From contig NC_003364.1 of assembly GCF_000007225.1 (NCBI RefSeq), positions 630,001 through 662,000 on the forward strand: a stretch of 32,000 nt of DNA. The letters are read 5' to 3'. The notes below the pieces were generated by a model that searched no databases, had not been told where the DNA came from, and saw only the letters and a list, made by a program, of their open reading frames with translations. The DNA is from Pyrobaculum aerophilum str. IM2 (GTDB lineage Archaea > Thermoproteota > Thermoprotei > Thermoproteales > Thermoproteaceae). The position numbers and the translations under genes are program-made. Positions 925-15,397 of the stretch are shown piece after piece (the stretch's first letter is position 1; the number at the start of each line of letters is the position of its first letter).

Positions 925-954
925 GCAATGCTTTTAAGCCTGTTTTTTTGAGTC
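925..954 (+). promoter_or_regulatory. Conserved promoter/leaderless-start box, copy A (most diverged)
   Basis: GCAATGCTTTTAAGCCTGTTTTTTTGAGTC directly precedes ATG 955. It aligns to the boxes at 3657, 9474 and 12729 (AATG, TATA-like element, CC, T-run, GA, then ATG). Confidence 0.55.
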
Positions 955-3108
955 ATGGTGTCCAGCAAGGCTATAATGTTGGCGTTAATAGGGTTAGTGA
1001 TCCTCGTATTTGCAAGGGCTGGGGGAATAGCGGTGTATATTAATAGCAGCGTGGAGATCCCGCCCCTGGCGTATTACGACGGAAAGGCGCTGAGGCCAGT
1101 CCATGTGACATACGTGGGGGAGTGGGACAGGGCGTTTTGGTATGAGGCCAACGCCACTGTTAATATACCCACGTGGAGTTTTAAAAAAGCCGTAATTTAC
1201 CTACCGCGCGAAGCCCTCGGGGCTAGAGCCCCGCCTAACTTCAAGAGGGGAGTCCTCCGCGTATATATAAATAATACTGTAGTAGAGCTCGTTGAGGCAC
1301 CGCCGGAGGTAATAGCCACTTACAGCTATTTAAAGCCAGGCGAGGAGATAAAGGCTAGTAAGGCCAAAGCCACGTGGGTCAAGTCGCCAGTTGGAAGAGG
1401 GCCAGCGGAGAGGGATAAGGAGCAGAACGGGAGAGACGCTACTGACAAATTCAGCTCTGTCCTACAAGCGTTTCAAGCGTCTTCTGTTGTCTTTCCAGAC
1501 GGCGCCTTTATATACAAGCAGTTTAATGGGTTGGTTAACAGTAACAGTGAGCGGTGTTTGGAGGTTTTGAGGACTGACTCCTACAGCCCGCCAGATAATC
1601 CGACAGTGGCCTCTGTTGGTTACAACGCCACTTACGTGTGGAGGACTGCGTGGTATGTATTTACCAGTAGTCTCAGCAGCGGGGCAGTTGCGGGGAGGGG
1701 GGTAATTAAAGTGTGGGAGGTGGACCCGGCGACGCTAAATAAGAAGTATCTCTTGGGGGCGTGGTCTGTGGATTTGAGAAACGGCTACGTCACGTTCACC
1801 ACTTCAATCTCTCTGAACTGGCCCGATAAGTTCATAGGCTTAGAGCTGTGTTTCGCCCCCAGCGTCAGCGCCACGTATACAGTAGGCGCAAACGCCACTC
1901 TAGGCTTTAGGAAAAACGCCATATCAATTGCCATGGGGAGCTACTCGCTTGGGGTTGTCCCAGTAGACAGGACGCAATATGTGGGTGGCGTTGTGTATTA
2001 CCAAGTCCTTCGACCCCCCATTAGGAATATTATTTTTGGTCCATTTACTCTAGCTGACGGTTATTACGGCCAGACGCTGAACTTAGATATGACCGTATAC
2101 GTGCCGTGGAGCACATCACAATGCCCGACGCTTGTAGTGACGACATACGTGGGAGATTTAGCCCACATGCAAATCGACTCGATCTCCTTTACGGCATCTG
2201 GGTACGGCAACGGCGCGTGTAGATATGAGGTGAGGAGGACGGTCACGCTCAGCTCTTCCGCAATCGGGTTCTGGTACGACGAGGCGAGGGCTAGGGACAA
2301 GGCCGTGGTTATAAGAGTTTCGTTTAACTACAACGTCTCAGAAGTGGTAATATACAGAGTGGACATCTCGGGATACAGATTTGCAGAAAACTACATAGAT
2401 AAAAACGTTAACTCATGGCTGACCCTTGTACTCAGGGGCTACTACTCGCAGACGCTTAGAGCTTGCACTATGGCGAGGTTGCCGCAAGTGAACTATACAG
2501 TGGTCTTGGCCAATATAGAGACGTATAGCGCGGCAGCGGGAACAAGGCCCGCCGACTTCCTTGCCGTTAACGTAGGCGCTCCAAGTGGGTATAAAATACA
2601 GAGCGTGGAATTCCGCATTAGACCGTCTGCCGCATTTGCGCCTCCTGTTAATGTGTACGTCAAGGGTACGAAGTTTGAAGAGCCCTGGTGGTTGACTTGG
2701 ACGTTTAGAATTGCCCAAGCGATAAAGACGGTACTAGACTTCCTTGGCCTCATACCAGGTCCTTTGAGCTGGTTTATAGATAGAGTTTTTGATCTCCGCG
2801 GATTATTATACCCGGATTTGACTATTACGCAGACCGCTGATTATGTTGCTGTAACTTGGCGTGCTGGAGTGTACGACAGTTATTACCAAGTGGCGTTTGA
2901 AATTGGCGTGGCTAACGTAGACAGAGTGCTAGAGGCGACTAATGTATATGTCTCAAATTCTGCCTATTTGTGCATGTACGCGCCCATTTCATCACAGATG
3001 CCTAAGCTAGATACCAATGCCCCATTTGATACCCAATACCTCAGACACTGGGTATACGGCATAAGGGTTACCCGTGACATCCCGTTTATAGTAGATGCGG
3101 CTGGTTAG
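955..3108 (+). CDS. Large secreted/surface protein, paralog A of a four-member family (unknown function)
   Basis: 717-aa ORF with a signal-like N-terminal helix (AIMLALIGLVILVFARA) and many N-x-S/T sequons. It shares several blocks with the ORFs at 3688, 9505 and 12760: the N-terminal LPR..A.R.PP block (IYLPREALGARAPPNF), a charged linker (GRGPAERDKEQNGRD), the EEPWW motif ~140 aa from the C-terminus, and a C-terminal YVAVTWRAG block. No catalytic motif recognised. Confidence 0.85.
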   Translation: MVSSKAIMLALIGLVILVFARAGGIAVYINSSVEIPPLAYYDGKALRPVHVTYVGEWDRAFWYEANATVNIPTWSFKKAVIYLPREALGARAPPNFKRGVLRVYINNTVVELVEAPPEVIATYSYLKPGEEIKASKAKATWVKSPVGRGPAERDKEQNGRDATDKFSSVLQAFQASSVVFPDGAFIYKQFNGLVNSNSERCLEVLRTDSYSPPDNPTVASVGYNATYVWRTAWYVFTSSLSSGAVAGRGVIKVWEVDPATLNKKYLLGAWSVDLRNGYVTFTTSISLNWPDKFIGLELCFAPSVSATYTVGANATLGFRKNAISIAMGSYSLGVVPVDRTQYVGGVVYYQVLRPPIRNIIFGPFTLADGYYGQTLNLDMTVYVPWSTSQCPTLVVTTYVGDLAHMQIDSISFTASGYGNGACRYEVRRTVTLSSSAIGFWYDEARARDKAVVIRVSFNYNVSEVVIYRVDISGYRFAENYIDKNVNSWLTLVLRGYYSQTLRACTMARLPQVNYTVVLANIETYSAAAGTRPADFLAVNVGAPSGYKIQSVEFRIRPSAAFAPPVNVYVKGTKFEEPWWLTWTFRIAQAIKTVLDFLGLIPGPLSWFIDRVFDLRGLLYPDLTITQTADYVAVTWRAGVYDSYYQVAFEIGVANVDRVLEATNVYVSNSAYLCMYAPISSQMPKLDTNAPFDTQYLRHWVYGIRVTRDIPFIVDAAG

Positions 3109-3655
3109 AGAGCTTGGCCTAAAATATTTGGCTTTTTCCCCAGCTATCCTAGCCTTTCCCTACCTTTCCTACGGGCCGCTGGTGAGCTGGGATCCCTCTT
3201 GGGGTTTTAGGATGGGGGTTGGGCTGATGGGCCTCGGGCATTATCTATACTTAGTCATGCAAGTGGCGTACTATGCTTGTAAACTCCCGCCGAAATACAT
3301 AGCCCTTTCCACAGCGGCTTTTTTAGCATACTTCTTGTCTTTGACGCGGCCTGAGCTGGTCGTCTTGTCGCTAGTCGGGCTTATCTACTCAGCGGCTGTT
3401 GTTTTGTACTTCGGCGTGAAAGACGGAGTTTTCGCGAACTGGCTTGGGGCTATCGCGTGGCTATTCCTCTGGAACTTAATAGGAGGGGTTTTGTCAATTC
3501 CAGCGCATATTTACTTCGGCGGGGGAGACATATGGCTGTGGTGGAGGGAGCCCCCGGCAGATCCCCTCTACGCGCTGGCAGTGGGAATTGCGGGGGCCGT
3601 GGCGACGTGGGCTTTGGGTAAAATCCGCCTACTGGTTGAATTCACCTGCCGGTAG
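3095..3655 (+). CDS. Small polytopic membrane protein, partner A'
   Basis: 186-aa ORF, almost entirely hydrophobic helices (about 5). It overlaps the end of gene A by 14 nt in the +1 frame. The N-terminal GLK motif and the EPPADPLY motif are shared with partner C'. Confidence 0.75.
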   Translation: MRLVRELGLKYLAFSPAILAFPYLSYGPLVSWDPSWGFRMGVGLMGLGHYLYLVMQVAYYACKLPPKYIALSTAAFLAYFLSLTRPELVVLSLVGLIYSAAVVLYFGVKDGVFANWLGAIAWLFLWNLIGGVLSIPAHIYFGGGDIWLWWREPPADPLYALAVGIAGAVATWALGKIRLLVEFTCR

Positions 3656-3656
3656 C

Positions 3657-3687
3657 GTAATGTTTATAAAGCCGTTTTTTTTGACAT
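3657..3687 (+). promoter_or_regulatory. Conserved promoter/leaderless-start box, copy B
   Basis: GTAATGTTTATAAAGCCGTTTTTTTTGACAT directly precedes ATG 3688. It begins 2 nt after the stop codon of partner A' (3653-3655). Confidence 0.7.
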
Positions 3688-6009
3688 ATGTTGTCTAGAA
3701 GAGCGTTAATAACTGCGATGTTATTAATTGCAGTACTAAGGGCGGCGGATATTTCCAGCTACGTCTTCGTAGAGTTTAACCCGGGAGACGGCTTTCCCTA
3801 CGTTGTGATTAACTCCACAGCGGTTGAGCCAGTGCCCATAGTCTACATCATGGTAGAGAGAGATATAATAATGCAGGAAATGGCTTTAAACACCACCATG
3901 TACTTGCCCCAGGGCGTGTACCTTGCCTTACCCAGGAGGTATTTCGCGCCGCGGCCGCCGGCGCCTCCGCCGGGCGTAAGGGGGCGTGTGGTGGACATAG
4001 AGGTAGAGGGCTTGGGAGTAGCCCGGGTTGTCATCGCCAGAAACGCCACGGAGATCCCCAACGCCGTGGCTTACTATGTGTATCTAGACGCGGAGGAGAG
4101 AGGCGGGAGGTATTACTACAAAGGCAAGCCGCTGGACGTCAGAAGGCCCAAGACGCCGAGGGACCGGGCGGGCGGTAGCGCCCAGGGTAGCGAGCCCGTG
4201 GGCCAAGCGGAGCCGATGTACTACACAGAGACTAAAAGCGGCACCGCCGTAAGTAGCTGGGCGAGATACGTCTTCAACCCAGCGTCGCCAATTAACGTGA
4301 GAAACCCCCCATCTTCTAGCTACACGCCGGTGAGGTACTTCAACGCCACGGGTTACGCCAACAACGACTTTGTAATGGGCACAACTCCATGGGCCTATCT
4401 AGGCCATGGCGTCTCTGACATATATCTAGCCATCCAAGGGGGGTCGAGTAGCTCTATCCGCTACTCCCTTTGCCCCTACTCCACGCCTACTCCAACTCCC
4501 CCGGCGTCGCCCACCGCCTCCCCATGCGTGCGCAACTCCCAGACCGCGCCGAGCTTCGGCCGCTACCTATTGGCGCGTATAAGCGCGGCGCCCTATGCCA
4601 ATAGCTATTTATGGTTCTACGCAGAGATTTACAACCCACTTAACCTTCCCATCAACGCCTCTATAGCTGTGGTGTACAACAGGCCCGCCCCTTCGGACGG
4701 CTCCGTCTACTCTTTGCTAACGGCCAACTGGCTCTCCTCAGTGGGCCAGCCGGGATACACATTCGGCGCAGACTACGGCTACAGCGTGAGGGTGTCCAGA
4801 CTCCTCTTTACTGTTAGAATACCACCAGGCGCCCAGATGCCTATAAACATTGCGTTAGTAGGCCTGGCGGTATACACCTGTAGCCCCAGCTCTACACTTA
4901 CCGTAAAGATATACACGCCGGCCGACCCAAACGCCTACGTCACAGCCACGGGGCAGAAGTACACATCTGCCGAATGCGCCACATACTTCTTTAGCGACAT
5001 ATACGGAACTTTGCCGGAATCAGCCGTAGTTCCGTTACTAGCGGCGAATTCTACGGTGATACCGCTGATTATAGAGTTTAATCCCAGCCTCTATGCCAGC
5101 TACCCAAATCGAGTAACTGTGACGTTTAAATCACTATTTGCCTTCGGCCAGCGCTGGCCAGAGATATGGAGACACAACGCCAACAATTGGATAAGCAGTT
5201 CTAAGACTTACCCATACACAACATTACCTGTTAAAGTTGTTTTTAGAGATTACTTAGCATTTTCAGTGTGGTCCACTGCGTATAATTTAAAGAACGAGTC
5301 GGTATCTCCATGGACAGATCTCAACATATTAGCTTACGCCGTGTTGACTACACAAGTAGGCTCTAGCGTAGCTTACGATCCACCCTCGTTCCCTAGGGCT
5401 TCGCTACAGTACATCCCTCTCGATCAATATCTTCAACTTAAGAAGGTGTGTCTGGCGTTTGAGAGCGTAAAGGCTGGCGCGGTTGGCTCGTTGACTACCT
5501 ACGTCAGCGTTGAGGGGCAGAACCCGTGGCTTGAGGCGTTTGCCTCCATTGTTTCCGCCGTTACTAATGCAATTGGAAACACTATAACAGGTTATCAGAT
5601 AATAAGCAAGATTTTTGGACTGGCGATGCCCTCGTTTTTAGGACCCCTTGGCTACGTGGTTTGGGGGCTTGGCATATTCGCGGCGTTAGTGCCCATGTCT
5701 GGAAATATCAACTGTGCGCCGTCTTCAGACTGGCTCTCTCACGGCTACGACGCGGGTACTGGGTACATAAAGGCGGCGGGATGGAAAATAGGCACGAATG
5801 AGTTGCCGTCTTACGCCGGGGGGCTTAAGGTGAAGATCTCTATGCTGATTGACCACTCGTTTTACCACAGTGTAAAAACCGTTGCGCCGGGAAGCGGGAT
5901 ATACGTAGACTTCTTCTCCTATGCCATATTTGACTCCTCTAACTACTTCACAGGGCCGTTGGAGCCCTATGCGCTGGGCGTTGGGAGGTTCTATCTTAAA
6001 ATCCAGTAG
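3688..6009 (+). CDS. Large secreted/surface protein, paralog B (unknown function)
   Basis: 773-aa ORF with a signal-like N-terminus (LITAMLLIAVLRAA) and many sequons. It carries the LALPRRYFAPRPPAPPPG block, a charged linker (RRPKTPRDRAGG), a Pro/Thr/Ser-rich stretch (STPTPTPPASPTASP), an NPW motif followed by a long hydrophobic segment ~160 aa from the C-terminus. Confidence 0.85.
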   Translation: MLSRRALITAMLLIAVLRAADISSYVFVEFNPGDGFPYVVINSTAVEPVPIVYIMVERDIIMQEMALNTTMYLPQGVYLALPRRYFAPRPPAPPPGVRGRVVDIEVEGLGVARVVIARNATEIPNAVAYYVYLDAEERGGRYYYKGKPLDVRRPKTPRDRAGGSAQGSEPVGQAEPMYYTETKSGTAVSSWARYVFNPASPINVRNPPSSSYTPVRYFNATGYANNDFVMGTTPWAYLGHGVSDIYLAIQGGSSSSIRYSLCPYSTPTPTPPASPTASPCVRNSQTAPSFGRYLLARISAAPYANSYLWFYAEIYNPLNLPINASIAVVYNRPAPSDGSVYSLLTANWLSSVGQPGYTFGADYGYSVRVSRLLFTVRIPPGAQMPINIALVGLAVYTCSPSSTLTVKIYTPADPNAYVTATGQKYTSAECATYFFSDIYGTLPESAVVPLLAANSTVIPLIIEFNPSLYASYPNRVTVTFKSLFAFGQRWPEIWRHNANNWISSSKTYPYTTLPVKVVFRDYLAFSVWSTAYNLKNESVSPWTDLNILAYAVLTTQVGSSVAYDPPSFPRASLQYIPLDQYLQLKKVCLAFESVKAGAVGSLTTYVSVEGQNPWLEAFASIVSAVTNAIGNTITGYQIISKIFGLAMPSFLGPLGYVVWGLGIFAALVPMSGNINCAPSSDWLSHGYDAGTGYIKAAGWKIGTNELPSYAGGLKVKISMLIDHSFYHSVKTVAPGSGIYVDFFSYAIFDSSNYFTGPLEPYALGVGRFYLKIQ

Positions 6010-6517
6010 TCTTTTTTCCCTCAGCCTCCTCTTCCTCTTCTCGGCGTCACTCCTCCCCCTGGGATCTGCCCAGCTTATCCGCGCCAATGTGGCGTATACC
6101 TTCTCGGTCGTGTCGGCCGTGTGCCTCTTCGTGTCGTGCCGCCGTTATTTTTACACAGCCGCGGCGTTTGGGGCCGTTTTGTGGGGGCTGTCCTTCGCCT
6201 ACCCCCACTTCCTCGTGGCGTTTCTCTCCATGTGGCTTTACCTGGGCTGGGCTTGGCTCGGCTTGCTGTGGGCCTCTTGGAGGCTTTGGAGAGTTAAAGG
6301 CGTTGTCACCGCCTTTGCGGCGCTGTATGTGATAAACCTTATGTACATACCCCTCGAATTTGCCAATTTATTGCCCGATTGGGCGCTGGCGGCAATAGGG
6401 GACAACCCTCGCACGACCTTCCTCAACTGGGCTAGGTATTTGCTAACCTATCTCACCACCATGGCCGTGTTGCAGACAATCCGCGTCTTGGCCAAGCTCG
6501 ACCAGCGGCGCCGCTAG
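5969..6517 (+). CDS. Small polytopic membrane protein, partner B'
   Basis: The track ORF starts at 5921. I prefer ATG 5969 because it places the ILK + F/L/S-rich first helix the same distance from the N-terminus as in partner C'. It overlaps gene B by 41 nt in the +1 frame, has multiple hydrophobic helices and a basic tail (DQRRR). Confidence 0.65.
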   Translation: MRWALGGSILKSSSLFSLSLLFLFSASLLPLGSAQLIRANVAYTFSVVSAVCLFVSCRRYFYTAAAFGAVLWGLSFAYPHFLVAFLSMWLYLGWAWLGLLWASWRLWRVKGVVTAFAALYVINLMYIPLEFANLLPDWALAAIGDNPRTTFLNWARYLLTYLTTMAVLQTIRVLAKLDQRRR

Positions 6518-7401
6518 GATAGGAGGTGGCTTCCGTCGCAGTGCGCACCTGGTGTGTTCAAATCGGCGAACTCCTCCCGGCAGATGTTGAACTGGAGGCC
6601 GTGGCGCCTGGCGTATTCAGCCACAAGCGCCAGGATTCTCCTCCTGTACTCCCTCGGCGCGTACCACTGTCCGTGGAAGTACTGCCCCTCTTGGAAGTAC
6701 ATCCTCCGCCACGTGAGTGCTTTGTCTGGAAAGGCCTTTGCCAGGCGGGCAAAGTTATCTCTCTTGGCCTTATACGTACTGGCGACGAGATGTTTAGCCC
6801 CGGCCTCAGCGGCTTTTGACACCACCTCCTCAATATTGTCCACGTCGTCGTTGAGCAAGGGAATTAAGGGGTCAAGCCTCACTGCGACGGGCACTCCAGC
6901 CTCCGAAAGGCGCCTTACGGCGTCAAGCCTCCCCGCGGGCCGCGGCGCCCCAGGCTCTAATACCGACGCCAGCTCTTCTCTAAGCGTGGTGATTGTGATC
7001 TGCACCGCCACACGCCCCCTGTGTCTTTGGAAGATGTCTAAATCCCGGAGGACGAGGGGGGACTTCGTCACTATAAGCACCTTGTACCCCCTCTCCAAGA
7101 GCATTTGCAATACCCTCCGGGTCAGCCCCAGCCTCGCCTCTGGAGGGGTGTAGGGGTCGGAAGAGTTAGATAGGGACACCACGGCGCCTTTTGGAATTTT
7201 TTCCAGATCCCGCCTCACTTTATCCAATAGGTCCTCCTTGGGCCGGGGATTGAAGGCATCTGGTATATACGACGTGATGTAGCAGTAAAGACACCCGTGG
7301 CCGCAGCCGGTGTAGGGGTTGAGGCCGTATTTAAAGGGGCAGGTGCAGAGGGGGTTGCCCCAGGGGTCAAAGGGCCTGACGACGCTAAGCGATATGCGCA
7401 T
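6514..7401 (-). CDS. Radical SAM protein (SplB/COG1533-like, 'DNA repair photolyase' type)
   Basis: 295-aa ORF with a CGHGCLYC (Cx3Cx2C) cluster near the N-terminus. Length and layout fit the SplB-like radical SAM group. It starts 9 nt downstream of the ATPase gene on the same strand. Confidence 0.75.
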   Translation of the reverse strand: MRISLSVVRPFDPWGNPLCTCPFKYGLNPYTGCGHGCLYCYITSYIPDAFNPRPKEDLLDKVRRDLEKIPKGAVVSLSNSSDPYTPPEARLGLTRRVLQMLLERGYKVLIVTKSPLVLRDLDIFQRHRGRVAVQITITTLREELASVLEPGAPRPAGRLDAVRRLSEAGVPVAVRLDPLIPLLNDDVDNIEEVVSKAAEAGAKHLVASTYKAKRDNFARLAKAFPDKALTWRRMYFQEGQYFHGQWYAPREYRRRILALVAEYARRHGLQFNICREEFADLNTPGAHCDGSHLLS

Positions 7402-7410
7402 ATCGGGCGG

Positions 7411-8178: not shown

Positions 8179-8624
8179 GTAAAAAACGCGACGGCCTTAT
8201 TAAAAACTTCGCCTCCAATCAATAAGTATAACACTTTGCGGAGCGGGCCCCTCCGGCATCCTAACAAAGGGGCGTTTATTTTTACCTCCAAGAATGCTGT
8301 TATATACGCAAAAGAGCCGCGACAAATATTCCCAATAAACGCCGTGAAGAGATGCGGTACTCCTGACTCTTCGTTGTAGTTTACAAATCCGTGGGCGGCG
8401 GCGTTTATCACCTCGCCTGCGTCTGGTGTAAAGAGCAGAACAACACTTGTGCACCTAACAGTCTCGTCGTAAAACTCCACTATCGCCGTCAATGCGACTG
8501 TAACCAGCAGTGTGGCGATTACTACTGCTAGAGATCATAGTGTAGTGAACAATACCTATTTTTCGTTAATAACGGATTTTAAATGCTGTTGCCTAACAGA
8601 GAGGGAATAAAAATGGCACGGCCC

Positions 8625-9257
8625 CTAATAATACAGCTTTTTTAAACTCACCACGGCCTTTGTTCCATCTAGTACCGCCTCGGCGTAGTAGCCGTCTTTC
8701 AAGGGGCCTGGGTTGACGACGATCGTATCGCCGATTATGTCAATGCCTCTATCCTCGTGTATGTGGCCGTGGACGGAGAGAATCGGTTGTTTTTCCTCGA
8801 TGTATTTCTTAACCGCCAGGCTGCCAACTGGCCTTACCCCGCCCACTTTGTCTAAATGTCCCCTCGGCGGGTTGTGGACCACCAAGACGTGGGGCGTGGG
8901 CGTAAGGGAGTAGAGTAGCCCCTGGAGATCCTCTTCCGACACTCTGAACAAGTCGTTGAAGGGCGTCGGGAGGCTCCCCCCGGCGCCTCCGATCACGTAG
9001 GGGCCCAGCCTTTGAGTCCTCCCGTGGACAGGCTTAATAGAGTCCTTCTCAAACCCGGCCAGCTCCGGAGGGTCTGTATTCCCCGGCACGAAGTACACAG
9101 GGGCTATCCCGGCGAGAGCCTCCAGCGCCTCCACAGCCGCCTCAACGCTCCGCTTGTAGGTGAAGTCGCCAGCCGCTATTACCGCGTCGTAACTGCCCCG
9201 GATTAATCTCACTTGTTTAACTCCGTCGTGTACATCGGCGACTAGTAGCAGGCGCAT
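8625..9257 (-). CDS. Metallophosphoesterase (calcineurin-like, MJ0936/YfcE type)
   Basis: 210-aa ORF with the motif series DVHDG, GDF, GNTD, VHNPP and HGHIHE. Confidence 0.85.
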   Translation of the reverse strand: MRLLLVADVHDGVKQVRLIRGSYDAVIAAGDFTYKRSVEAAVEALEALAGIAPVYFVPGNTDPPELAGFEKDSIKPVHGRTQRLGPYVIGGAGGSLPTPFNDLFRVSEEDLQGLLYSLTPTPHVLVVHNPPRGHLDKVGGVRPVGSLAVKKYIEEKQPILSVHGHIHEDRGIDIIGDTIVVNPGPLKDGYYAEAVLDGTKAVVSLKKLYY

Positions 9258-9473
9258 TTGCGCTTTAAGATATTCTGTTTTAAACTTGACGGCGCTAGTT
9301 AATGCGCCTCCCTACATTTATATAACAACATGTAGAACGGCGACTAGGCAAAGCAAAAGCGACACTGGGAAGCACTCTCCAACACTCGCCAAAGTCCCCG
9401 GGCGTACCCAGACCTCACAGCCCCCTCGCTTTTTAACGCGGAAAGGACACTGAATAGGAAATACTACTATAGC

Positions 9474-9504
9474 GCAATGTTTATAAATCCGTTTTTTTTG
9501 AGGC
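9474..9504 (+). promoter_or_regulatory. Conserved promoter/leaderless-start box, copy C
   Basis: GCAATGTTTATAAATCCGTTTTTTTTGAGGC directly precedes ATG 9505. The TATA element TTTATAAA starts 25 nt upstream of the ATG. Confidence 0.7.
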
Positions 9505-11625
9505 ATGTTGCCGAGATCTCTTCTAGTAATGGCGTTGGCGGCTTGGGCTGTGTTGCTAACAGCGCAGGGACCGCCTGGGGAGCTGTTCTGCGCCTCGGCG
9601 GGGGAGCTGGGGCTTGCGGGAGAGCCGTCAACGCTTATGTTCTCAGTGTTTGAAAGGGGGTCTTGGAGGCCTGCCGCCGCATATATAGAGCCGGAGAACG
9701 TCACCTTCCTCCTCGTGCCGCTCCTCACTAGAAACGACACTGACATATCTAAAGCCGCGGTGCCGGGCAGGCTCCCGCCCCCTGTCTTGAGAAACGAGAC
9801 AGTGGTGTGTTTTGAGGCCGCCCCGGGGAGGCCTGCGGTGGATCCGCCCGCGCCAGGCCTCCTCATAGTGGCAGAGAAGAGGGTGGCTAAATACCACGTC
9901 TTCGTCGCCAGGGCAGAAGACGTGGAGAACCCCGCCAATTTTACGCTTGCTTTGCCCAATAAGGCCGAGGGGAAGAGGCCGGACAAGGTAGAACTGGCAG
10001 ACCAACGCCCGCCTCGCGGCGGCAAGAAAAAACAACAGCCAGAGGCAGAGGTGCAGTCTGTAAATAGCCTAAGCTACTGGGCCGCCTTCAAGCTGTATAA
10101 ACTGACCTCTGCCTCCCTGGCGCCAGGCGCGTGTCTATCCACTACCTTCGACGTGCCAGAGGGAACGCGGCAGGCGGCAGTGGTCTTAACAGGCGGCACA
10201 ACACCTGGGACGTATCAATACACTATAACCAACACCTTAAGTCCGTCCAACAGGTGGAGCGGCACGGTAACTGTACCCCAGGGATCTCCGCAAACTGCGG
10301 TGCAGTGGTTGCCCTCTGGCAGAGCCCAGTACTACGTAGAGATATGTAATAGAAACTCCCAAACCGCCACCGTCTACACCTCGGTGTTACTCCAAGCCCA
10401 GAACCAGCAGTATTTTAGAAACGACGTAATTAGAACTCCTAGGATCTACATCCTCACCTACTTGCCTGTATACTGTAGTAATTATGGCCTCTGTCCGAGC
10501 AACACGCATGTAATATATGAAAACTCTTACTTCGCCATTCCTGGGTTTTATGTAGACGCCGCCTCCTACATCTTCCTCGAAATATACGTAAAAGTGCCAA
10601 AAGAGGCCGCTAAGTCCGACCCAGTTACGGTGTACTGGGGAAGTATCCCTGTGGCAACTCTCTACGGCTATGACTCGGGGAACACCAAAATCTACTCAGG
10701 CAGCGTGGTGATACCAGACAGCTATTTGATGTTCCTCCTACCCACTTACGGCCTAGGAGGAGTTATCTCAATAGGCCCCTTTACCATCTACGCAAACTCT
10801 GCATATGAAGTGGAAGTAAAGGCGGCTGTGAGGAAGCCGCAGGAACTCGCCCCAGCAGGTGACGCAACAGTATACAATACGTTAGTAAGAAGATTCAGAG
10901 AGTCCTTTCTCTTCTTTAACCGGAGAGCATTTATAGCAGACATAGACTATGCAAGAGCAGGTGGGGCAAGTGGCGAGCTCGTTATAAGTACTAAGCCGGT
11001 TGTAGATATTGGCGCACCGCCATGGGCCAAGTACTCATACGTGACGTTCTACATAAGATTCTACGACGGCTCTATGAATCCGATAGAAATATCTGGAGGT
11101 AGCGCATTTGTTGTCAATACGACTTCGTGGTGGGGGAGTGCGTTGAAAAACTTGGCAATAGTTTCTGCAATTCTCCAGATTTATGATTTGATAAAGGGCA
11201 CTGTTGACGCTTTGAAGAAGGTGGCCACGGGCTTTCCAGTGATTGGATATGTGACTTTTGCCATGGACGCCATTATTAACGCCGCGGAGGCCAGTGTAAG
11301 CGTTGAAAGAGTTGATTCCTACACGTTGAAAGTCACTCTGTGGACAGGAGGATACGATAGGGATCCACTAGAGGCGAGAATATATTTTAACATACGGAGT
11401 GATCCGCAGTACGTCGCCGTTACGGGGGTTGAGTATAGTATTGGCGAATTAGGTTCTTGGATTACTGTACATAGAGTGGATAAGCCGGTTCTGCCGTACA
11501 CGTCATATGCGTATGTGGGAGGTGCCAGTAGCGTTACCTACTTCCCCTACAGGACTTTGACATGCGGCGTCCAAGAGTCTCTAGGTTATCCGTGGAATAA
11601 GTGTGACAGCGCGTATTATCGGTAG
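9505..11625 (+). CDS. Large secreted/surface protein, paralog C (unknown function)
   Basis: 706-aa ORF with a signal-like N-terminus (LLVMALAAWAVLLTA) and many sequons. It carries a VPGRLPPPV block, a charged linker (QRPPRGGKKKQQPEAE), an SWW motif followed by an amphipathic/hydrophobic segment ~165 aa from the C-terminus, and a C-terminal YTLKVTLWTGG block. Confidence 0.85.
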   Translation: MLPRSLLVMALAAWAVLLTAQGPPGELFCASAGELGLAGEPSTLMFSVFERGSWRPAAAYIEPENVTFLLVPLLTRNDTDISKAAVPGRLPPPVLRNETVVCFEAAPGRPAVDPPAPGLLIVAEKRVAKYHVFVARAEDVENPANFTLALPNKAEGKRPDKVELADQRPPRGGKKKQQPEAEVQSVNSLSYWAAFKLYKLTSASLAPGACLSTTFDVPEGTRQAAVVLTGGTTPGTYQYTITNTLSPSNRWSGTVTVPQGSPQTAVQWLPSGRAQYYVEICNRNSQTATVYTSVLLQAQNQQYFRNDVIRTPRIYILTYLPVYCSNYGLCPSNTHVIYENSYFAIPGFYVDAASYIFLEIYVKVPKEAAKSDPVTVYWGSIPVATLYGYDSGNTKIYSGSVVIPDSYLMFLLPTYGLGGVISIGPFTIYANSAYEVEVKAAVRKPQELAPAGDATVYNTLVRRFRESFLFFNRRAFIADIDYARAGGASGELVISTKPVVDIGAPPWAKYSYVTFYIRFYDGSMNPIEISGGSAFVVNTTSWWGSALKNLAIVSAILQIYDLIKGTVDALKKVATGFPVIGYVTFAMDAIINAAEASVSVERVDSYTLKVTLWTGGYDRDPLEARIYFNIRSDPQYVAVTGVEYSIGELGSWITVHRVDKPVLPYTSYAYVGGASSVTYFPYRTLTCGVQESLGYPWNKCDSAYYR

Positions 11626-12157
11626 TTTTGGGCTAAAGGCCTCTTTTTTCTTGTTTCTTTTTTCCTACTTGTTGCTGGCTGGGGTTCGCGCGGGGCTGTT
11701 TGAGTTTCCCCATTTCCTTCTGTTGGGGGCTTTGGCGTATTTAGCGGCTTATTACGTGGCTAGTGGGCGTTATCTCTTCCCCACGGCTGTTTACGGGGCT
11801 GGGCTTGGGCTTTTGGCCCTCAACAAGTTTCTGCCGCCTAGCGCCGTGTTCGGGCCTCTGCCCGTTGATTTGAGCTGGGCCACTTTCTACTTCCCCTTTG
11901 CCGCCGCGGCCCTTCTCTTGTACGCGGCCACTTTCGCCAGGGGGTTTGCGGCGAGGGCTCTCTCAGTACTTCTCCTGGCGCTGGCAGTGGCGCTGGGACA
12001 CTTCTACATGGTTTACGTGGGCTGGCTGTGGAGGGCCGTGGTGCCCTCCCTGGGGCTGGCCCCCGCCTTCCCCGAGCCCCAAGACGCGCCGCTATACATA
12101 CTGCTCTACGAGCTGTGGAGAGCTGTACACCAGCTCCCCCTCCGGCGCAAGGCTTAA
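11603..12157 (+). CDS. Small polytopic membrane protein, partner C'
   Basis: 184-aa ORF with a GTG start, overlapping gene C by 23 nt in the +1 frame. It has about 5 hydrophobic helices, the GLK and EPQDAPLY motifs, and a basic tail (RRKA). Confidence 0.7.
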   Translation: MTARIIGSFGLKASFFLFLFSYLLLAGVRAGLFEFPHFLLLGALAYLAAYYVASGRYLFPTAVYGAGLGLLALNKFLPPSAVFGPLPVDLSWATFYFPFAAAALLLYAATFARGFAARALSVLLLALAVALGHFYMVYVGWLWRAVVPSLGLAPAFPEPQDAPLYILLYELWRAVHQLPLRRKA

Positions 12158-12178
12158 TCCAAGACTCTACTGGCGTGG

Positions 12179-12330
12179 ATGCCCCCGCCTCTGGTGGCCG
12201 ATACATGCGGCGGAGTTGGGCAGGTGAGTCCTATCGGCGGCATTTACGACGCGGCAACAGCCGCCGGCGGCCAGGCAGAACGTCGAGGTTGCTGTGAAAG
12301 CGCTGGAGACACTCGCCGTGATAGCGCCGT
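12179..12330 (+). pseudogene. 5' fragment of a metallophosphoesterase gene (copy of 8625-9257, opposite orientation)
   Basis: It aligns to the first ~50 codons of the intact gene: PLVADTCGGVGQVSPIGGIYDAATAAGG vs LLVADVHDGVKQVRLIRGSYDAVIAAGD. By hand count, 55/77 nt are identical over one ungapped stretch. An internal deletion and a frame change follow (LETLAVIAPCI vs LEALAGIAPVY). It ends abruptly at ~12330. Confidence 0.8.
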
Positions 12331-12545
12331 GTATTTCAACCTACAGGCAGATTGCGTTGTCGACGATGTGGAAAACTCCCGCGGAGACGCAGGTAGGTGA
12401 TACACTTGTAAAGCTCAGATGCAAAAGCTGGAACAAAGGCGTATTTTTGAATGATGGCCGCATTAATGAGTTTGTATATAAAACTTAGTGTTTTAAACAC
12501 AAGGGTCTTTATGAAAACAGATATGTTTCCGCGGGCTTTACATCT
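12331..12545 (-). pseudogene. 5' fragment of a rhomboid protease gene (copy of 16298-, opposite orientation)
   Basis: A 26-nt run at 12427-12452 is identical to the reverse complement of 16412-16437. At protein level, INAAIIQKYAFVPAF matches LNPAVIQKYAFVPAL. Similarity continues upstream into the rhomboid promoter region (to ~12600 on the + strand). It is fused tail-to-tail to the phosphoesterase fragment. Confidence 0.8.
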
Positions 12546-12728
12546 CATAATAGCAAATCCACTGGCTAAATCTATACAAGAACCTACCACAGAGATACGG
12601 CGCTGAGGAGAGGCCGGAGCCTCGGCGCTGTCGCAACGCCCGCAGTCTCCCAAGCCAGTGCTCAACCCCTTGACGAGGGAGCCGACAGCAGTGCATACTC
12701 CAACGCCTTCGTAATCAAGTGATGATGC

Positions 12729-12759
12729 GCAATGTTTATAAATTCCGTTTGTTTGAGAT
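12729..12759 (+). promoter_or_regulatory. Conserved promoter/leaderless-start box, copy D
   Basis: GCAATGTTTATAAATTCCGTTTGTTTGAGAT directly precedes ATG 12760. The first 12 coding nt (ATGTTGCCGAGA) are identical to those of gene C. Confidence 0.7.
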
Positions 12760-14886
12760 ATGTTGCCGAGAATAGTTCTGTGGATTGCGATTGCGGCGTT
12801 TGTAATAGCTGGTTATGTTGACGTCCACGTAGAGGGCGGGCCAGACGTTGAGAGCCTGCATTTGTACGTATGGAACGGCTCCGACTGGACGCCTGTTTAT
12901 GTCATTTACCAGCCAGAGTTTATTGACACATACCTTGTCGCCACTGGCCAGTGGGTATTGATGCCCTACTACAACATGTCTAAATATGTCCTGCGCATTC
13001 CCAGGGCGGCTCTGGCGCCGCGGGGGCCTCCACAAGTCCCGCCGGGGCTAGAGCGCTGGACTCTGGAGGTGGAGAACGGGACTAGAAAAGCGGTCATAAC
13101 GCTGGCAGTGGGCAGAGACCCGCTGAGGCGCGGCAACACAACTCTGGCCACATGGAAGGCGCTTGGTCAAGAAATAGTGAAGACGCCAAACCGGGGCAAA
13201 ATTGACAGGCCGCCTAGGAGGGGGCCTCAGAACAGCCCAGATGGCGGCGATGTTGCAACCGCCAGCTACGCCGTGTCTACAGGCGCTACCGTATACCCCA
13301 TTGGAAGCCTCTATTTCAAATCGGCCTCCGTTGCTGGCACCTTCAGCACATACCTGCCCGTTGACTCGCCCACGGGCGAGACGAGGCTGTGCGGCTTGGA
13401 CAATATGCACTGGGTTGGGTTTGAAGTTCAAAACTTCACCTTAGGGATTAAGGTGGATGGATATGTCACCGGGGGCTACCTCACTCTAGAAATTTACAAC
13501 TTAGACACGTGCACCTTAATAAGCAACACGCTCTTCGCACTTCCAAATACCGGGACCTACTGGACAAATATACAGATTAGCCTCCCCCAAGACAGCCAAA
13601 TTGGCGTGAGGCTAAAGGCAAGCGGTAGCGCGGAAGTCGCGTCCATTTCAGCATATGTAGTTGCGAGGTATAAAAAGACTGTAAACAGCCTCGCCCAAAT
13701 AGCAACTTCGAAGGTTATTTCAGCCTCTGCTCCTAGAATAAGCGTAAGTGGCAGGTACAAAGTGGGAGTCCTCTACGGACCTTACGTCGCGTATGACGGC
13801 TTGGCGGGGAACTCCGCTGGTTCGAGCTACAGCAACGTATATGTTCCGCCGTCTACAGTAACGCTTACAGTGTATGGGCAGTACTGCCCGTTATTAAATG
13901 TACAGATTTATATCAACGGTATGTTATACACATCTGACCTTGTAAGCCCCGTCTCGACGACCCCTGCAGGTTATACTTGTACTTATAATGTTCCTTCGAA
14001 AACCTTACAGATATGGCCCAGGGAGTACGCAGTATCTAAGGCCACTTATTCGGGCGGGGGCATCTCAGTCACAGTGGTATATACATTTTGGGGAAGTAGC
14101 GCAACCATAAGCTTTTCCGACAGACTCCAAATAGTATATGACAGGTGGATAGAGCCGTTCCATTCGCGCTATATAGACGTCAGTACTGGATTACCCTATC
14201 TCCAGTGGGGGACTGTATTACTCTATAACACATTACAAATTTTAGGACCAGTCAACAGCTCCACTCTGAACATAGTAACGGAAATAAGGGCCAGAAACAA
14301 TGAATTGATAATATCTCTTGCGCACAACTTGCTAAATCCCATGTTTCATGTATGCGGCGCTGAGTGGGTAATAACAGCGCCTGTGGAAAGCCAGGGCATA
14401 AGTACTTATTACGACGGTTCCGCTGTTGAGGAGCCGTGGTGGGCGGCAACAGCAAAGAGAGTTTTAGATGCCATAGACTGGCTCTTGATATTTGCCCAGG
14501 GAGACAAGGGGACGTTGGCATCTCTCGCATTAAAAGTAGTATACAATGTGGTAAGCGCAGCCACTCCCCAAGTCTCTGTAACCAGTAGCAACGGAGTATA
14601 TAGAGTAACGTGGATTAGAGGCTGGGCCGATCCCATTCCATCAAACGTTGTGCTAATGTTAAGGCGTATGTCAGTTCCAGCGACTAGCCCGGCGTATGCG
14701 GAGTGGAGATATTTCAGAGACGGAGCGCCGAATATATTCGGTTGTATTCTCTCACCGTTTTACTACGTAGTAAATACCAATATGTACTTACCGCAAAGGC
14801 TTTTTAGTAGTGATGCCAGAGGGCGACTGATATGGACGTGGCGTGGGCAGACCAACTTAATATCGGAGGTGATAGTGACTGGGTAA
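12760..14886 (+). CDS. Large secreted/surface protein, paralog D (unknown function)
   Basis: 708-aa ORF with a signal-like N-terminus (IVLWIAIAAFVIAG) and many sequons. It carries the LRIPRAALAPRGPPQVPPG block, a charged linker (DRPPRRGPQNSPDGGD), the EEPWW motif ~150 aa from the C-terminus, and a C-terminal YRVTWIRGW block. Confidence 0.85.
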   Translation: MLPRIVLWIAIAAFVIAGYVDVHVEGGPDVESLHLYVWNGSDWTPVYVIYQPEFIDTYLVATGQWVLMPYYNMSKYVLRIPRAALAPRGPPQVPPGLERWTLEVENGTRKAVITLAVGRDPLRRGNTTLATWKALGQEIVKTPNRGKIDRPPRRGPQNSPDGGDVATASYAVSTGATVYPIGSLYFKSASVAGTFSTYLPVDSPTGETRLCGLDNMHWVGFEVQNFTLGIKVDGYVTGGYLTLEIYNLDTCTLISNTLFALPNTGTYWTNIQISLPQDSQIGVRLKASGSAEVASISAYVVARYKKTVNSLAQIATSKVISASAPRISVSGRYKVGVLYGPYVAYDGLAGNSAGSSYSNVYVPPSTVTLTVYGQYCPLLNVQIYINGMLYTSDLVSPVSTTPAGYTCTYNVPSKTLQIWPREYAVSKATYSGGGISVTVVYTFWGSSATISFSDRLQIVYDRWIEPFHSRYIDVSTGLPYLQWGTVLLYNTLQILGPVNSSTLNIVTEIRARNNELIISLAHNLLNPMFHVCGAEWVITAPVESQGISTYYDGSAVEEPWWAATAKRVLDAIDWLLIFAQGDKGTLASLALKVVYNVVSAATPQVSVTSSNGVYRVTWIRGWADPIPSNVVLMLRRMSVPATSPAYAEWRYFRDGAPNIFGCILSPFYYVVNTNMYLPQRLFSSDARGRLIWTWRGQTNLISEVIVTG

Positions 14887-14902
14887 AGACGCTTGCTTCC
14901 AA

Positions 14903-15397
14903 ATGATTAAAACGGCAAAAATACTGTTTTTTGTCTCTTTTTCTTTCACTCTTTTTTTGGCCTATTTAGTTAGCGATGGCATCTTTTACCCCTTCGGCGC
15001 TGGCACGTTCCTCGCCGGTTTGTACCTTACGCTAGTGGGGCTTATTTTTTTCTTCAGCGAGGTGCCGAAGATGCGCAGGCGGTTGCTGGAGGCTGTGGCA
15101 ATAATCCTCCTCTTCGCCTCGTTTCACCTGTTCCCGCCTCTTTCGCTGACGGCAATACCCGCTCTGTTTTTTATCTTGTTAATGCCAATATACCTTGGAT
15201 GGAAGCACCGTGTGTTTATAGACGTGGTGCACATAGTTTTGTGGCTGATCGCCTCGTCAGCTCTGGGATCGGCCTTGTATTGGCCTATGCCCAAGGCCTT
15301 TTGGTCCCAAGTTTTGACGGCCGGAGCCTCTTCCCTAGCCGCCCATTATTTCCTCTTAAAGGCCTACCCTCGCATAAAGAAGACACGGCGTATATAA
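14903..15397 (+). CDS. Small polytopic membrane protein, partner D'
   Basis: 164-aa ORF whose ATG lies 16 nt after the stop of gene D, again in the +1 frame relative to D. It has an F/L/S-rich first helix, about 5 hydrophobic helices and a basic tail (KKTRRI). Confidence 0.75.
   Translation: MIKTAKILFFVSFSFTLFLAYLVSDGIFYPFGAGTFLAGLYLTLVGLIFFFSEVPKMRRRLLEAVAIILLFASFHLFPPLSLTAIPALFFILLMPIYLGWKHRVFIDVVHIVLWLIASSALGSALYWPMPKAFWSQVLTAGASSLAAHYFLLKAYPRIKKTRRI

What the first reader, a model, noticed from the sequence alone, without database searches (positions are those of the whole stretch)
925..12771. Near-identical ~31-nt promoter/leaderless-start box retained upstream of all four diverged large genes
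Seen: the four boxes, ending at the ATG, are as follows. A (from 925): GCAATGCTTTTAAGCCTGTTTTTTTGAGTC-ATG. B (from 3657): GTAATGTTTATAAAGCCGTTTTTTTTGACAT-ATG. C (from 9474): GCAATGTTTATAAATCCGTTTTTTTTGAGGC-ATG. D (from 12729): GCAATGTTTATAAATTCCGTTTGTTTGAGAT-ATG. Conservation runs into the first codons: ATGTTGCCGAGA is identical in C and D, and B has ATGTTGTCTAGA. The TATA element begins 25 nt upstream of the ATG. By established archaeal promoter geometry (TATA centred ~26 nt upstream of the TSS), transcription should start at or next to the start codon, giving leaderless mRNAs. The coding bodies have diverged beyond easy nucleotide alignment, yet the box is kept, including the CCG-T8-GA segment between TATA and ATG that basal promoter function does not require. 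Inference: either selection for co-regulation by a shared factor binding the T-run/GA segment, or recurrent gene conversion of the 5' ends.
Basis: partly seen in the sequence, partly recalled or inferred. Interest (0 to 1): 0.7.

Follow-up and report, generated by a model that had tools for sequence, protein, structure and literature searches.

The report
Conserved promoter box of variable archaeal cassettes
Four very different secreted-protein genes of the hot-spring archaeon Pyrobaculum aerophilum all start with the same ~45-base promoter-and-start box, which selection has kept almost unchanged in this gene family across the genus, is nearly absent from other genes, and is where whole gene cassettes get deleted.

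Summary
The four boxes end at ATG 955, 3688, 9505 and 12760. They are the only nucleotide similarity among four two-gene cassettes. Each cassette has a ~710-770 aa secreted all-beta protein and a ~165-200 aa polytopic membrane protein. These are P. aerophilum 'families 66, 68, 59'.

The box is not the organism's generic promoter. An HMM built only from boxes in other genomes finds exactly these four sites in the window. In 334 kb of Pyrobaculum DNA, 16 of 18 TATA/T-run/start matches precede family genes. In the complete P. oguniense genome a strict pattern hits only three family genes.

The box is old and under selection. C- and D-type orthologues with saturated synonymous sites keep it 68-87% identical. 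Consensus: TTTATAAA-GCCG-(8-9 T-rich nt)-GAGAC-ATGTTG.

Copies also recombine. C and D boxes are 91% alike, and one strain has lost cassette C with the junction inside the box.

Best reading: a family-specific extended core promoter for leaderless transcripts, probably carrying a factor site, with the T-tract at the proximal promoter element position. Neither the start site nor the factor was tested. T-tract phase variation remains possible but is weakly supported.

The parts
925..966 (+). Box A, the most diverged copy: GCAATG, TTTTAA (932-937), GCCTG, T7 (943-949), GAGTC, then ATGGTGTCCAGC.
   Evidence: Scores 11.2 bits with the independent HMM.
955..3108 (+). Gene A, 717 aa secreted all-beta protein (P. 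aerophilum family 66, identical to AAL63242).
   Evidence: No Pfam match. Full-length homologue of D by hhalign, 99.8%, E 4e-29.
3095..3655 (+). Gene a, 186 aa polytopic membrane protein. It overlaps the end of A, so it is probably co-transcribed.
3657..3699 (+). Box B: GTAATG, TTTATAAA (3663-3670), GCCG, T8 (3675-3682), GACAT, then ATGTTGTCTAGA. It begins 2 nt after the stop codon of gene a.
   Evidence: Scores 27.9 bits.
3688..6009 (+). Gene B, 773 aa secreted protein (family 68, identical to AAL63244).
   Evidence: The N-terminal ~270 columns are related to D (hhalign 92%, E 7e-7).
5969..6517 (+). Gene b, 182 aa membrane protein. An alternative start at 5921 gives 198 aa.
9474..9516 (+). 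Box C: GCAATG, TTTATAAA (9480-9487), TCCG, T8 (9492-9499), GAGGC, then ATGTTGCCGAGA.
   Evidence: Scores 36.1 bits. It is the left arm of the deletion junction in L064.
9505..11625 (+). Gene C, 706 aa secreted protein (family 59, identical to AAL63250).
   Evidence: Only weak N-terminal relation to D (hhalign 72%, E 3e-5).
11603..12157 (+). Gene c, 184 aa membrane protein. It overlaps the end of C.
12729..12771 (+). Box D: GCAATG, TTTATAAA (12735-12742), TTCCG, TTTGTTT (12748-12754), GAGAT, then ATGTTGCCGAGA.
   Evidence: Scores 15.8 bits. It is the right arm of the deletion junction in L064.
12760..14886 (+). Gene D, 708 aa secreted protein (family 66). It is built of beta-sandwich/jelly-roll domains with a helical hairpin at residues 560-599.
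   Evidence: AlphaFold model pLDDT 81.7, pTM 0.81.
14903..15397 (+). Gene d, 164 aa membrane protein.

Best explanation
Each box is the complete extended core promoter plus leaderless start of one cassette. It has these parts:
- a BRE-like GYAATG;
- a near-perfect TATA box, TTTATAAA, at -25..-18;
- a (G/T)CCG element directly after the TATA box;
- an 8-9 nt T-rich tract at -13..-6, where the archaeal promoter proximal element lies;
- a GAGNC pyrimidine/purine initiator ending at -1;
- ATG-TTG.

Shown here: the module is specific to this cassette family. Purifying selection has held it across Pyrobaculum and Thermoproteus for longer than it takes to saturate synonymous sites. Copies within one genome are additionally homogenised and recombined.

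Inferred:
- The module fixes where and how strongly transcription starts, at or within a few nt of the ATG, so that all cassettes share one output.
- The invariant CCG and GAGNC flanks are contact points for a dedicated trans-factor or for a particular TFB.
- The T-tract acts as the proximal element. In tandem arrays it also acts as an oligo-T terminator that stops read-through from the preceding cassette.

The cassettes themselves are fast-evolving, strain-variable cell-envelope proteins.
For: Family restriction:
- A strict pattern scan of 185,579 species genomes gave archaeal hits only at boxes A, B and C of the complete P. oguniense TE7 genome. The other 22 hits were single chance matches in bacteria.
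- nhmmer over 679 kb of Pyrobaculum loci: every hit above 15 bits precedes a family gene, except one TFB-paralogue promoter at 16 bits. The next hit scores 8 bits.
- A loose regex (TATA, then T>=6, then a start codon with an ORF) on 334 kb non-redundant DNA gave 18 hits, 16 of them family genes. Twelve of the 14 T/A runs >=8 lie in these boxes.
- Other promoters in the window share only the generic cAAgTTTAAA at about -27.

Selection:
- About 66 D-type orthologues (45-70% aa identity) carry ATGTTTATAAAGCCG-(8-9 T-rich nt)-GAGAC-ATGTTG.
- C-type orthologues (51% aa) carry the box.
- Three other family genes carry a related TATA/T-run/ATG box: a third family-66 gene of P. aerophilum (L062) and two genes on the P. 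aerophilum-like contig L146.
- Between orthologues the box is 68-87% identical, against 25-48% at four-fold sites and 48-60% in the 62 nt upstream.
- The spacer length is held at 8-9 nt.

Geometry:
- The distance from the TATA end to the ATG is 17-18 nt, inside the 14-21 nt range of other genes in the window.
- P. aerophilum mRNAs are leaderless (PMC2151090).
- The PPE lies at about -10 and modulates promoter strength (PMC5316973).
- Five to six T residues terminate archaeal RNAP efficiently at 90 C (PMC2253867), and box B starts 2 nt after the stop codon of gene a.

Recombination:
- Boxes C and D are 91% identical, against 70-77% to their orthologues.
- L064 lacks window 9517-12771, with the junction inside the box.
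Against: - No transcription start site, expression or binding data were available.
- The box has no conserved dyad or direct-repeat symmetry of the kind most archaeal regulators use.
- Some family members have lost the T-tract or most of the box: A-type in L005/L006, B-type in L144/L145, D-type in L119. The box is therefore not indispensable.
- TTTATAAA is centred at about -21.5 from the ATG. That is a few nt closer than the textbook -26/-27, so the real start could lie at +1 to +6. In one sub-clade ATG is replaced by GCG and the ORF would start at the conserved TTG.
- Only about 0.3 Mb of non-redundant Pyrobaculum DNA and one strict whole-genome pattern were scanned. Diverged copies upstream of unrelated genes elsewhere in the genome cannot be excluded.
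Confidence: 0.6

Rival explanations
1. Phase-variable (contingency) promoter. Slippage in the poly-T tract changes the TATA-to-initiator spacing and switches individual cassettes up or down. A population would then express different surface-protein variants, as with the poly(A) tract of Mycoplasma hyorhinis vlp promoters.
For: - The genes are a multi-copy family of strain-variable secreted proteins with a conserved promoter and leader and a homopolymer inside the promoter.
- Pure T runs vary in length: 6 (1 contig), 7 (4), 8 (17), 9 (4), 15 (1). Interrupted tracts never vary.
- Across about 9.1 kb that is ~99.7% identical between the window and P. oguniense TE7, two of the only three indels are T8->T7 in boxes B and C.
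- From my own recollection of Fitz-Gibbon et al. 2002 (paper not held), P. aerophilum lacks MutS/L and has unstable mononucleotide runs.
Against: - Five independent assemblies of the window lineage have identical tract lengths at all four boxes.
- T8 is kept between contigs whose flanks differ by up to 15-20%. Length differences appear only at <=95.5% flank identity. This points to stabilising selection on length.
- Large sub-clades carry interrupted, slippage-proof tracts such as CTTTCTTTT and TGTCTTTT.
- TE7 was sequenced with 454 plus SOLiD, so T7 versus T8 may be a homopolymer error.
- Other promoters in the window tolerate 14-21 nt TATA-to-ATG spacing.
Confidence: 0.12
2. There is no selection on the box. 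The similarity is only recent duplication or recurrent gene conversion of the 5' ends among neighbouring paralogues.
For: - Boxes C and D of the window share derived states (GCGCAATG..AAAT and CCGAGA). They are 91% identical, against 70-77% to their orthologues in L065.
- In L066 the divergently oriented C and D boxes share T7-GGGTC-ATGTTGTC.
- L064 shows a crossover inside the box.
Against: - The same box heads single, unlinked family genes in other genomic contexts (L062, L146).
- It heads D-type orthologues in dozens of metagenome lineages that have saturated synonymous sites.
- Conversion cannot act between species, so it cannot explain this conservation.
Confidence: 0.08
3. The box is simply the generic strong promoter of Pyrobaculum (TATA plus an A/T-rich proximal element), with nothing specific to this family.
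For: - BRE-like AA(T)G plus TTTATAAA fits the generic cAAgTTTAAA seen in the window.
- Two unrelated genes in L062 (ferritin-like, SBP56) have the TATA/T-run/ATG layout.
- The KaiC-like gene at 8178(-) has TAATAAGGCCG...T6..ATG.
Against: - 16 of 18 loose matches, and all HMM hits above 15 bits but one, precede family genes.
- TE7 has only three strict matches in 2.44 Mb.
- No other promoter in the window scores above 4 bits.
Confidence: 0.05
4. The main role of the box is as a recombination site that lets cassettes be deleted, swapped or inverted. Its promoter function is secondary.
For: - There is a precise C-c cassette deletion between boxes C and D.
- Cassette order and orientation differ in L065, which has D'-d'-C'-c' inverted between flanks that are 97-99% identical to the window.
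- TE7 lacks cassette D.
Against: - Only one junction maps inside a box. The other rearrangements do not have box-defined ends.
- No recombinase gene is linked to the cassettes.
- Single-copy family genes keep the box.
- The conserved parts coincide with known promoter elements.
Confidence: 0.07

Closest known systems
[quoted passage not shown]
   Same: The elements and positions match. TATA lies 17-18 nt before the start codon, as in other genes of this window. There is a T-rich block at about -10 and a pyrimidine/purine step at -1/+1.
   Different: Generic promoters conserve only BRE and TATA loosely. Here about 45 nt, including CCG after the TATA box, the tract length, GAGNC and the first two codons, are kept across species and are restricted to one gene family.
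Mycoplasma hyorhinis vlp variable-lipoprotein gene family. The cluster is described in PMC4198240. The poly(A)-tract promoter switch is from my own knowledge of Yogev 1991 and Citti & Wise 1995.
   Same: It is a cluster of divergent surface-protein genes, each preceded by a highly conserved promoter and leader that contains a homopolymeric tract. Gene number varies between strains.
   Different: It is bacterial, with the tract in the -35/-10 spacer, and its tract-length switching is proven. Here the promoter is archaeal TATA-type, tract length is mostly fixed at 8-9 nt, many lineages have interrupted tracts, and no switching has been shown.
VARTIG hypervariable module of Thermococcales (PMC8416519)
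   Same: A large secreted, hypervariable archaeal protein gene is followed by small partner genes. There is evidence of recombination between species inside the large gene. Compare gene C here: ~100% identical to TE7 for its first ~300 nt, then 60-80%.
   Different: No Ig or other Pfam domains were detected and no sequence relation was found. The partner here is one fixed small polytopic membrane protein. No shared promoter box is mentioned in the VARTIG abstract; the full text was not read.
Promoter subsets served by alternative TFB paralogues, for example Sulfolobus TFB3 (PMC6101591, listed)
   Same: The shared idea is that a subset of promoters is distinguished by sequence next to TATA or the TSS and read by a special general factor. 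In one metagenome clade a TFB paralogue lies divergently next to the D-type gene, and its own promoter has TTTAAAGCCGTGTTTTT.
   Different: No TFB paralogue is in this window, the metagenomic one is often a pseudogene, and there is no functional evidence.

Membership tests
Archaeal BRE/TATA/PPE/Inr promoter of a leaderless mRNA | An 8-bp A/T TATA box about 24-27 nt upstream of the TSS | tested here: met
   TTTATAAA lies at -25..-18 from the ATG in B, C and D, and TTTTAA in A. The spacing falls within the range of other genes in the window. Position relative to a real TSS is unknown.
Archaeal BRE/TATA/PPE/Inr promoter of a leaderless mRNA | An A/T-rich proximal element at about -10 and a pyrimidine(-1)/purine(+1) initiator | tested here: met
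   T7/T8 or TTTGTTT lies at -13..-6. C or T is at -1 and A at +1 in all four boxes. The definition is from PMC5316973.
Archaeal BRE/TATA/PPE/Inr promoter of a leaderless mRNA | Transcription starts at or within a few nt of the start codon | not testable with these tools
   No TSS data were available. Published P. aerophilum 5' ends are leaderless (PMC2151090).
Family-specific cis-regulatory element (regulon box) | The motif is confined to a defined gene set rather than spread over the genome | tested here: met
   The test is limited to about 0.33 Mb of non-redundant DNA plus one strict pattern over the TE7 genome.
Family-specific cis-regulatory element (regulon box) | Conserved in orthologues beyond neutral expectation | tested here: met
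   The box is 68-87% identical, against 25-48% at four-fold sites and 48-60% in the upstream flank.
Family-specific cis-regulatory element (regulon box) | A recognisable operator architecture (dyad or repeats) and a cognate factor | tested here: not met
   No inverted repeat of 5 nt or more is shared by boxes A-D. No candidate regulator was identified in the window.
Phase-variable contingency promoter (vlp / Neisseria type) | A homopolymeric tract inside the core promoter of surface-protein genes | tested here: met
   T7-T8 lies between the TATA box and the start. The proteins have signal peptides.
Phase-variable contingency promoter (vlp / Neisseria type) | Tract length differs among very close relatives or within a population | tested here: inconclusive
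   There is no variation among 5 near-identical assemblies. TE7 has T7 where the window has T8, but TE7 was sequenced with 454. Lengths of 6-9 occur among lineages with <=95.5% identical flanks.
Phase-variable contingency promoter (vlp / Neisseria type) | Expression switches with tract length | not testable with these tools
   This needs reporter or transcript assays.
Concerted evolution / gene conversion of paralogue 5' ends | Paralogous boxes within one genome are more alike than orthologous boxes, and recombinant junctions exist | tested here: met
   Window C/D boxes are 91% identical, against 70-77% to their orthologues. L066 C and D boxes share GGGTC-ATGTTGTC. The L064 junction lies inside ATGTTGCCGAGA. 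The pattern is not seen in every genome: in L068 the orthologues are closer.
VARTIG (Thermococcales) | A large protein with Ig domains (arCOG07710) | tested here: not met
   None of the four large proteins has a Pfam family at E<=0.1. The fold search gives only generic jelly-roll hits with TM about 0.1.
Pyrobaculum S-layer protein PySLP | A 292-kDa Ig-rich protein with a C-terminal transmembrane anchor | tested here: not met
   The proteins here are 706-773 aa and end without a membrane helix. PySLP is described in bioRxiv 10.64898/2026.08.21.746120.

The most novel reading that the evidence does not exclude
The boxes head an archaeal 'contingency' system: an array of alternative cell-surface cassettes whose expression is set by the length of a slippage-prone poly-T tract between the TATA box and the initiator. 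Cassette content would be reshuffled by recombination at the same boxes. A refinement is that the CCG element just downstream of the TATA box is read by a dedicated TFB paralogue. This would be the first homopolymer-driven promoter phase variation that I am aware of in Archaea; no dedicated search of the literature was made.
Probability: 0.12. Interest if true: 0.8.

Novelty: new variant of a known kind. Interest (0 to 1): 0.5.

Why it matters
Archaeal promoters are usually described as BRE plus TATA with little information downstream. Very few family-specific extended core promoters are known, least of all in Thermoproteales, where no genetic system exists.

This box offers a naturally replicated mutagenesis series: more than 60 variants, with tract lengths of 6-15 nt, interrupted tracts, and ATG replaced by GCG. 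The series can test how the TATA-to-initiator spacer, the proximal element and the first codons set start-site choice and strength for leaderless mRNAs at about 100 C.

It also flags an uncharacterised, strain-variable secreted-protein/membrane-protein cassette family. The 9.1-kb block that carries cassettes A-a and B-b and the 5' end of gene C was exchanged between species. That makes the family a candidate for virus or cell-cell interaction at the Pyrobaculum surface.

Tried and rejected
- Viral contig scan with the box pattern: 29 single hits, all in AT-rich (21-42% GC) contigs, without CCG or ATG spacing. These are chance matches.
- Pfam on all eight cassette proteins: nothing useful.
- Rfam on the whole window: only an H/ACA sRNA at 18915-18982 and nothing at the boxes.
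- Foldseek of the D model against PDB: only generic jelly-roll or beta-sandwich hits with TM about 0.1.
The folds of C and D could therefore not be compared.
- The profile search with the four-protein alignment returned only A-type relatives.
- P0094 (P. ferrireducens) could not be located.
- The P. aerophilum genome paper is not held. Its statement on unstable mononucleotide runs is cited from memory only.
- Dyad symmetry or a direct repeat as an operator signature: none is shared. The ACATGT repeat seen in one D sub-clade is not general.
- S-layer identity was rejected on size and architecture.
- A terminator-only role for the T-tract was rejected, because boxes with divergent upstream genes (box C, and D-type genes next to the TFB paralogue) keep the tract.

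Full report
OBSERVATION. A MAFFT alignment shows conservation from about -34 to +12 and none further upstream. blastn among the four cassettes, with 100 nt of flank each, finds nothing but this 45-49 nt stretch, at 80-87% identity. A version allowing the indels of A and D finds all four. As an independent test I built an HMM from 37 boxes collected only from other genomes and metagenomes. In the 32-kb window it scores the four sites at 36.1, 27.9, 15.8 and 11.2 bits, and the next best site at 4.0 bits.

WHAT THE GENES ARE. Each box precedes a two-gene cassette. The first gene encodes a 706-773 aa protein with an N-terminal signal peptide. The second, overlapping or abutting it, encodes a 164-198 aa protein with several membrane helices. 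None has a meaningful Pfam match. Exact-sequence look-up identifies A, B and C as AAL63242, AAL63244 and AAL63250 of Pyrobaculum aerophilum IM2, annotated as 'P. aerophilum family 66', '68' and '59' proteins. D falls in the cluster of AAL63252, family 66. An AlphaFold model of D built with 39 orthologues (pLDDT 81.7, pTM 0.81) is a chain of beta-sandwich/jelly-roll domains with one helical hairpin. It has no informative match in the PDB, with TM about 0.1. The proteins are not the 292-kDa Pyrobaculum S-layer protein.

Profile-profile comparison gives a graded picture of relatedness:
- D against A: 99.8%, E 4e-29, over the full length.
- D against B: 92%, E 7e-7, over the N-terminal ~270 columns.
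- D against C, using a 14-sequence C profile: 72%, E 3e-5, over the N-terminal ~320 columns.
- C against A and C against B: nothing.
So A and D are certain paralogues, B is a probable one, and C is only a possible one.

IS THE BOX GENERIC? No. Other promoters in the window share only a cAAgTTTAAA-type BRE/TATA ending 14-21 nt before the start codon. A strict pattern scan of one genome per species (185,579 species) gave archaeal hits only in P. oguniense TE7. There were three hits in its complete 2.44-Mb chromosome, and they are boxes A, B and C of the same locus. The other 22 hits were isolated chance matches in bacteria. nhmmer with a box HMM over 679 kb of Pyrobaculum and Thermoproteus loci gave a bimodal result. 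Every hit above 15 bits lies directly upstream of a family gene, with one exception, the promoter of a TFB paralogue at 16 bits. The next hit scores 8 bits. A deliberately loose regular expression (TATA, 2-8 nt, T>=6, 1-8 nt, a start codon with an ORF of 60 aa or more) on 334 kb of largely non-redundant DNA gave 18 hits, of which 16 are family genes. Of the 14 T or A runs of 8 or more in that DNA, 12 are in these boxes.

IS IT OLD AND SELECTED? Yes. A metagenome scan with a D-type profile returned 80 loci. In about 66 of them the 5' end was present, and it shows the consensus (A/C)TGTTTATAAAGCCG-(8-9 T-rich nt)-GAGAC-ATGTTG, although the proteins are only 45-70% identical to D. C-type orthologues at 51% aa identity in L066 and L068, and the C' gene of L065, carry the box. 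A third family-66 gene of P. aerophilum carries a related TATA/T-run/ATG box (L062). So do two further family genes on the P. aerophilum-like contig L146. For orthologous pairs, identity at four-fold degenerate sites is 25-48%, which is saturated or close to it. The 62 nt upstream of the box are 48-60% identical, which is the alignment baseline. The box (-31..-1) is 68-87% identical. The spacer between CCG and GAGNC is held at 8 or 9 nt in 59 of 66 sequences.

The box is not universal. A-type orthologues in L005 and L006, B-type orthologues in L144 and L145, and the D-type gene of L119 keep only fragments (TATAAA..CCG..GA.AC) or nothing.

RECOMBINATION AT THE BOXES. Within the window, boxes C and D are 91% identical. 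They share states (GCGCAATG, AAAT, CCGAGA) that their orthologues in L065 lack, and they are only 70-77% identical to those orthologues. In L066 the divergently oriented C and D boxes share T7-GGGTC-ATGTTGTC. Yet the L066 and L068 C genes are 90% identical at four-fold sites while their boxes are only 77% identical.

Contig L064 matches window 7541-9516 and then 12727-17072. The 45 nt of overlap are the box, so this strain lacks cassette C-c, and the junction lies inside ATGTTGCCGAGA. The longest exact repeats shared by boxes C and D are 17 and 12 nt. That is below usual assembly k-mer sizes, so a mis-join is unlikely (inference).

In L065 the flanks are 97-99% identical to the window. The cassettes, however, are D'-d'-C'-c', inverted relative to the flanks, and only ~70% identical in protein. 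TE7 lacks cassette D. The surrounding genes (rhomboid, radical SAM, KaiC-like, a TnpB-like ORF) are syntenic even in the distant L119. The array is therefore a variable island at a fixed chromosomal position.

HOW IT PROBABLY WORKS. The sequence shows a near-perfect TATA box 17-18 nt before the ATG, a T-rich block at -13..-6, and a pyrimidine/purine step at -1/+1. From the literature:
- P. aerophilum transcripts are leaderless (PMC2151090).
- An A/T-rich proximal element at about -10 and the initiator tune promoter strength (PMC5316973).
- Five to six T residues stop archaeal RNA polymerase efficiently at 90 C (PMC2253867).
I infer that the box is an extended core promoter that fixes start site and output for every cassette. 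The T-tract would serve as the proximal element. In tandem arrays it would also terminate the previous cassette's transcript, since box B begins 2 nt after the stop codon of gene a.

The nearly invariant CCG just after the TATA box and the GAGNC at the start are not explained by generic promoter needs. They are the best candidates for contact with a dedicated factor or a particular TFB. No dyad symmetry supports a classical dimeric operator, and no factor could be named.

One caveat concerns the start site. The TATA centre is about 21.5 nt from the ATG, so the start could be a few nt inside the annotated ORF. A sub-clade has GCG in place of ATG and would have to start at the conserved TTG.

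PHASE VARIATION? Pure T runs vary in length (6, 7, 8, 9 and 15 nt), whereas interrupted tracts never do. Between the window and TE7 there is a 9.1-kb block, window ~705-9800, with 22 substitutions and 3 indels. Two of the three indels are T8->T7 in boxes B and C.

Several points argue against phase variation. TE7 was sequenced with 454 plus SOLiD. Five independent assemblies of the window lineage agree at all four tracts. T8 is retained between contigs whose flanks differ by 5-20%. Whole sub-clades carry slippage-proof tracts. I therefore rate phase variation as possible but not favoured, at about 0.12.

COMPARISON WITH KNOWN SYSTEMS. In function the box is an archaeal BRE/TATA/PPE/Inr promoter. 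It differs in being about 45 nt long, family-restricted and deeply conserved. The closest analogue in logic is the Mycoplasma hyorhinis vlp family, which has divergent surface-protein genes behind a conserved promoter and leader containing a homopolymer. The cluster is described in PMC4198240. The tract mechanism is from my own knowledge. At the level of the locus it resembles the VARTIG hypervariable module of Thermococcales (PMC8416519), but it shares no domains with it. The cassettes are not members of either family.

VERDICT. The start site and the binding factor remain untested, and the T-run lies in a known promoter element. I rate this a new variant of a known kind, with interest 0.5.

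Noticed in passing
window ~705-9800, compared with L058/L057 (P. oguniense TE7, CP003316): A ~9.1-kb block is ~99.7% identical between this P. aerophilum-type window and P. oguniense TE7 (22 substitutions, 3 indels). It covers cassettes A-a and B-b, the radical SAM, KaiC-like and Metallophos genes, box C and the first ~300 nt of gene C. Identity falls to 73-76% to the left of it and to 60-82% through most of gene C. This looks like a recent inter-species transfer or recombination with one end inside gene C.
   Followed up: partly
L065 9843-15982; L057 3444-6741: Strain-level rearrangements of the island. In L065 the cassettes are in the order D'-d'-C'-c', inverted relative to flanks that are 97-99% identical to the window. 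In TE7 cassette D is replaced by a second, oppositely oriented copy of Metallophos, KaiC-like and radical SAM, whose proteins are 80-88% identical to those of the window copy.
   Followed up: partly
L123 8536-9345 (-); also L069, L070, L073, L074, L076, L079, L084, L093, L096, L103, L117, L133, L135, L137: A short TFB paralogue (Zn ribbon, B-reader, cyclin repeats; 269 aa in L123) lies divergently upstream of the D-type gene in one metagenome clade. In several contigs it carries in-frame stops or frameshifts. Its own promoter, AAAACTTTTTAAAGCCGTGTTTTT..ATG, resembles the box (16 bits).
   Followed up: partly
window 56-787 (+): A 243-aa ORF has only the C-terminal Cas12f1/TnpB-like zinc-ribbon (TNB) domain (PF07282, E 2e-6). 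It is conserved at 79-81% aa identity in the same neighbourhood in TE7 and in the distant L119, and in L001 it follows a PaREP2b gene. It looks like a fixed, truncated TnpB relative rather than a mobile copy.
   Followed up: partly
L085, L087, L101, L104, L105, L110, L111, L113, L120, L122, L132, L138 (D-type gene starts): In one sub-clade the ATG of the box is GCG (GTG in L110), while the rest of the box and the next codon, TTG, are kept. The ORF would then begin at TTG. This raises the question of which codon is really used in the family.
   Followed up: no
window 8179-8210 (-), upstream of the KaiC-like gene: The promoter TTTTTAATAAGGCCGTCGCGTTTTTTAC-ATG has a TATA box followed by GCCG and a T6 run near the start. 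This is a faint echo of the box, on a gene that always neighbours the cassettes in the P. aerophilum/oguniense group.
   Followed up: no
window 18915-18982 (+): Rfam match to Pyrobaculum H/ACA-like sRNA 201 (RF02801, 93.7 bits).
   Followed up: no
window 6710, compared with L058: There is a single-base indel between the window and TE7 inside the radical SAM gene (6514-7401, minus strand). The TE7 copy matches in two frames, so it carries a frameshift or a sequencing error.
   Followed up: no
L007 4817-13215: An open reading frame of at least 3,960 aa runs off the contig about 1.6 kb downstream of an A-type family gene in a JGI metagenome contig.
   Followed up: no
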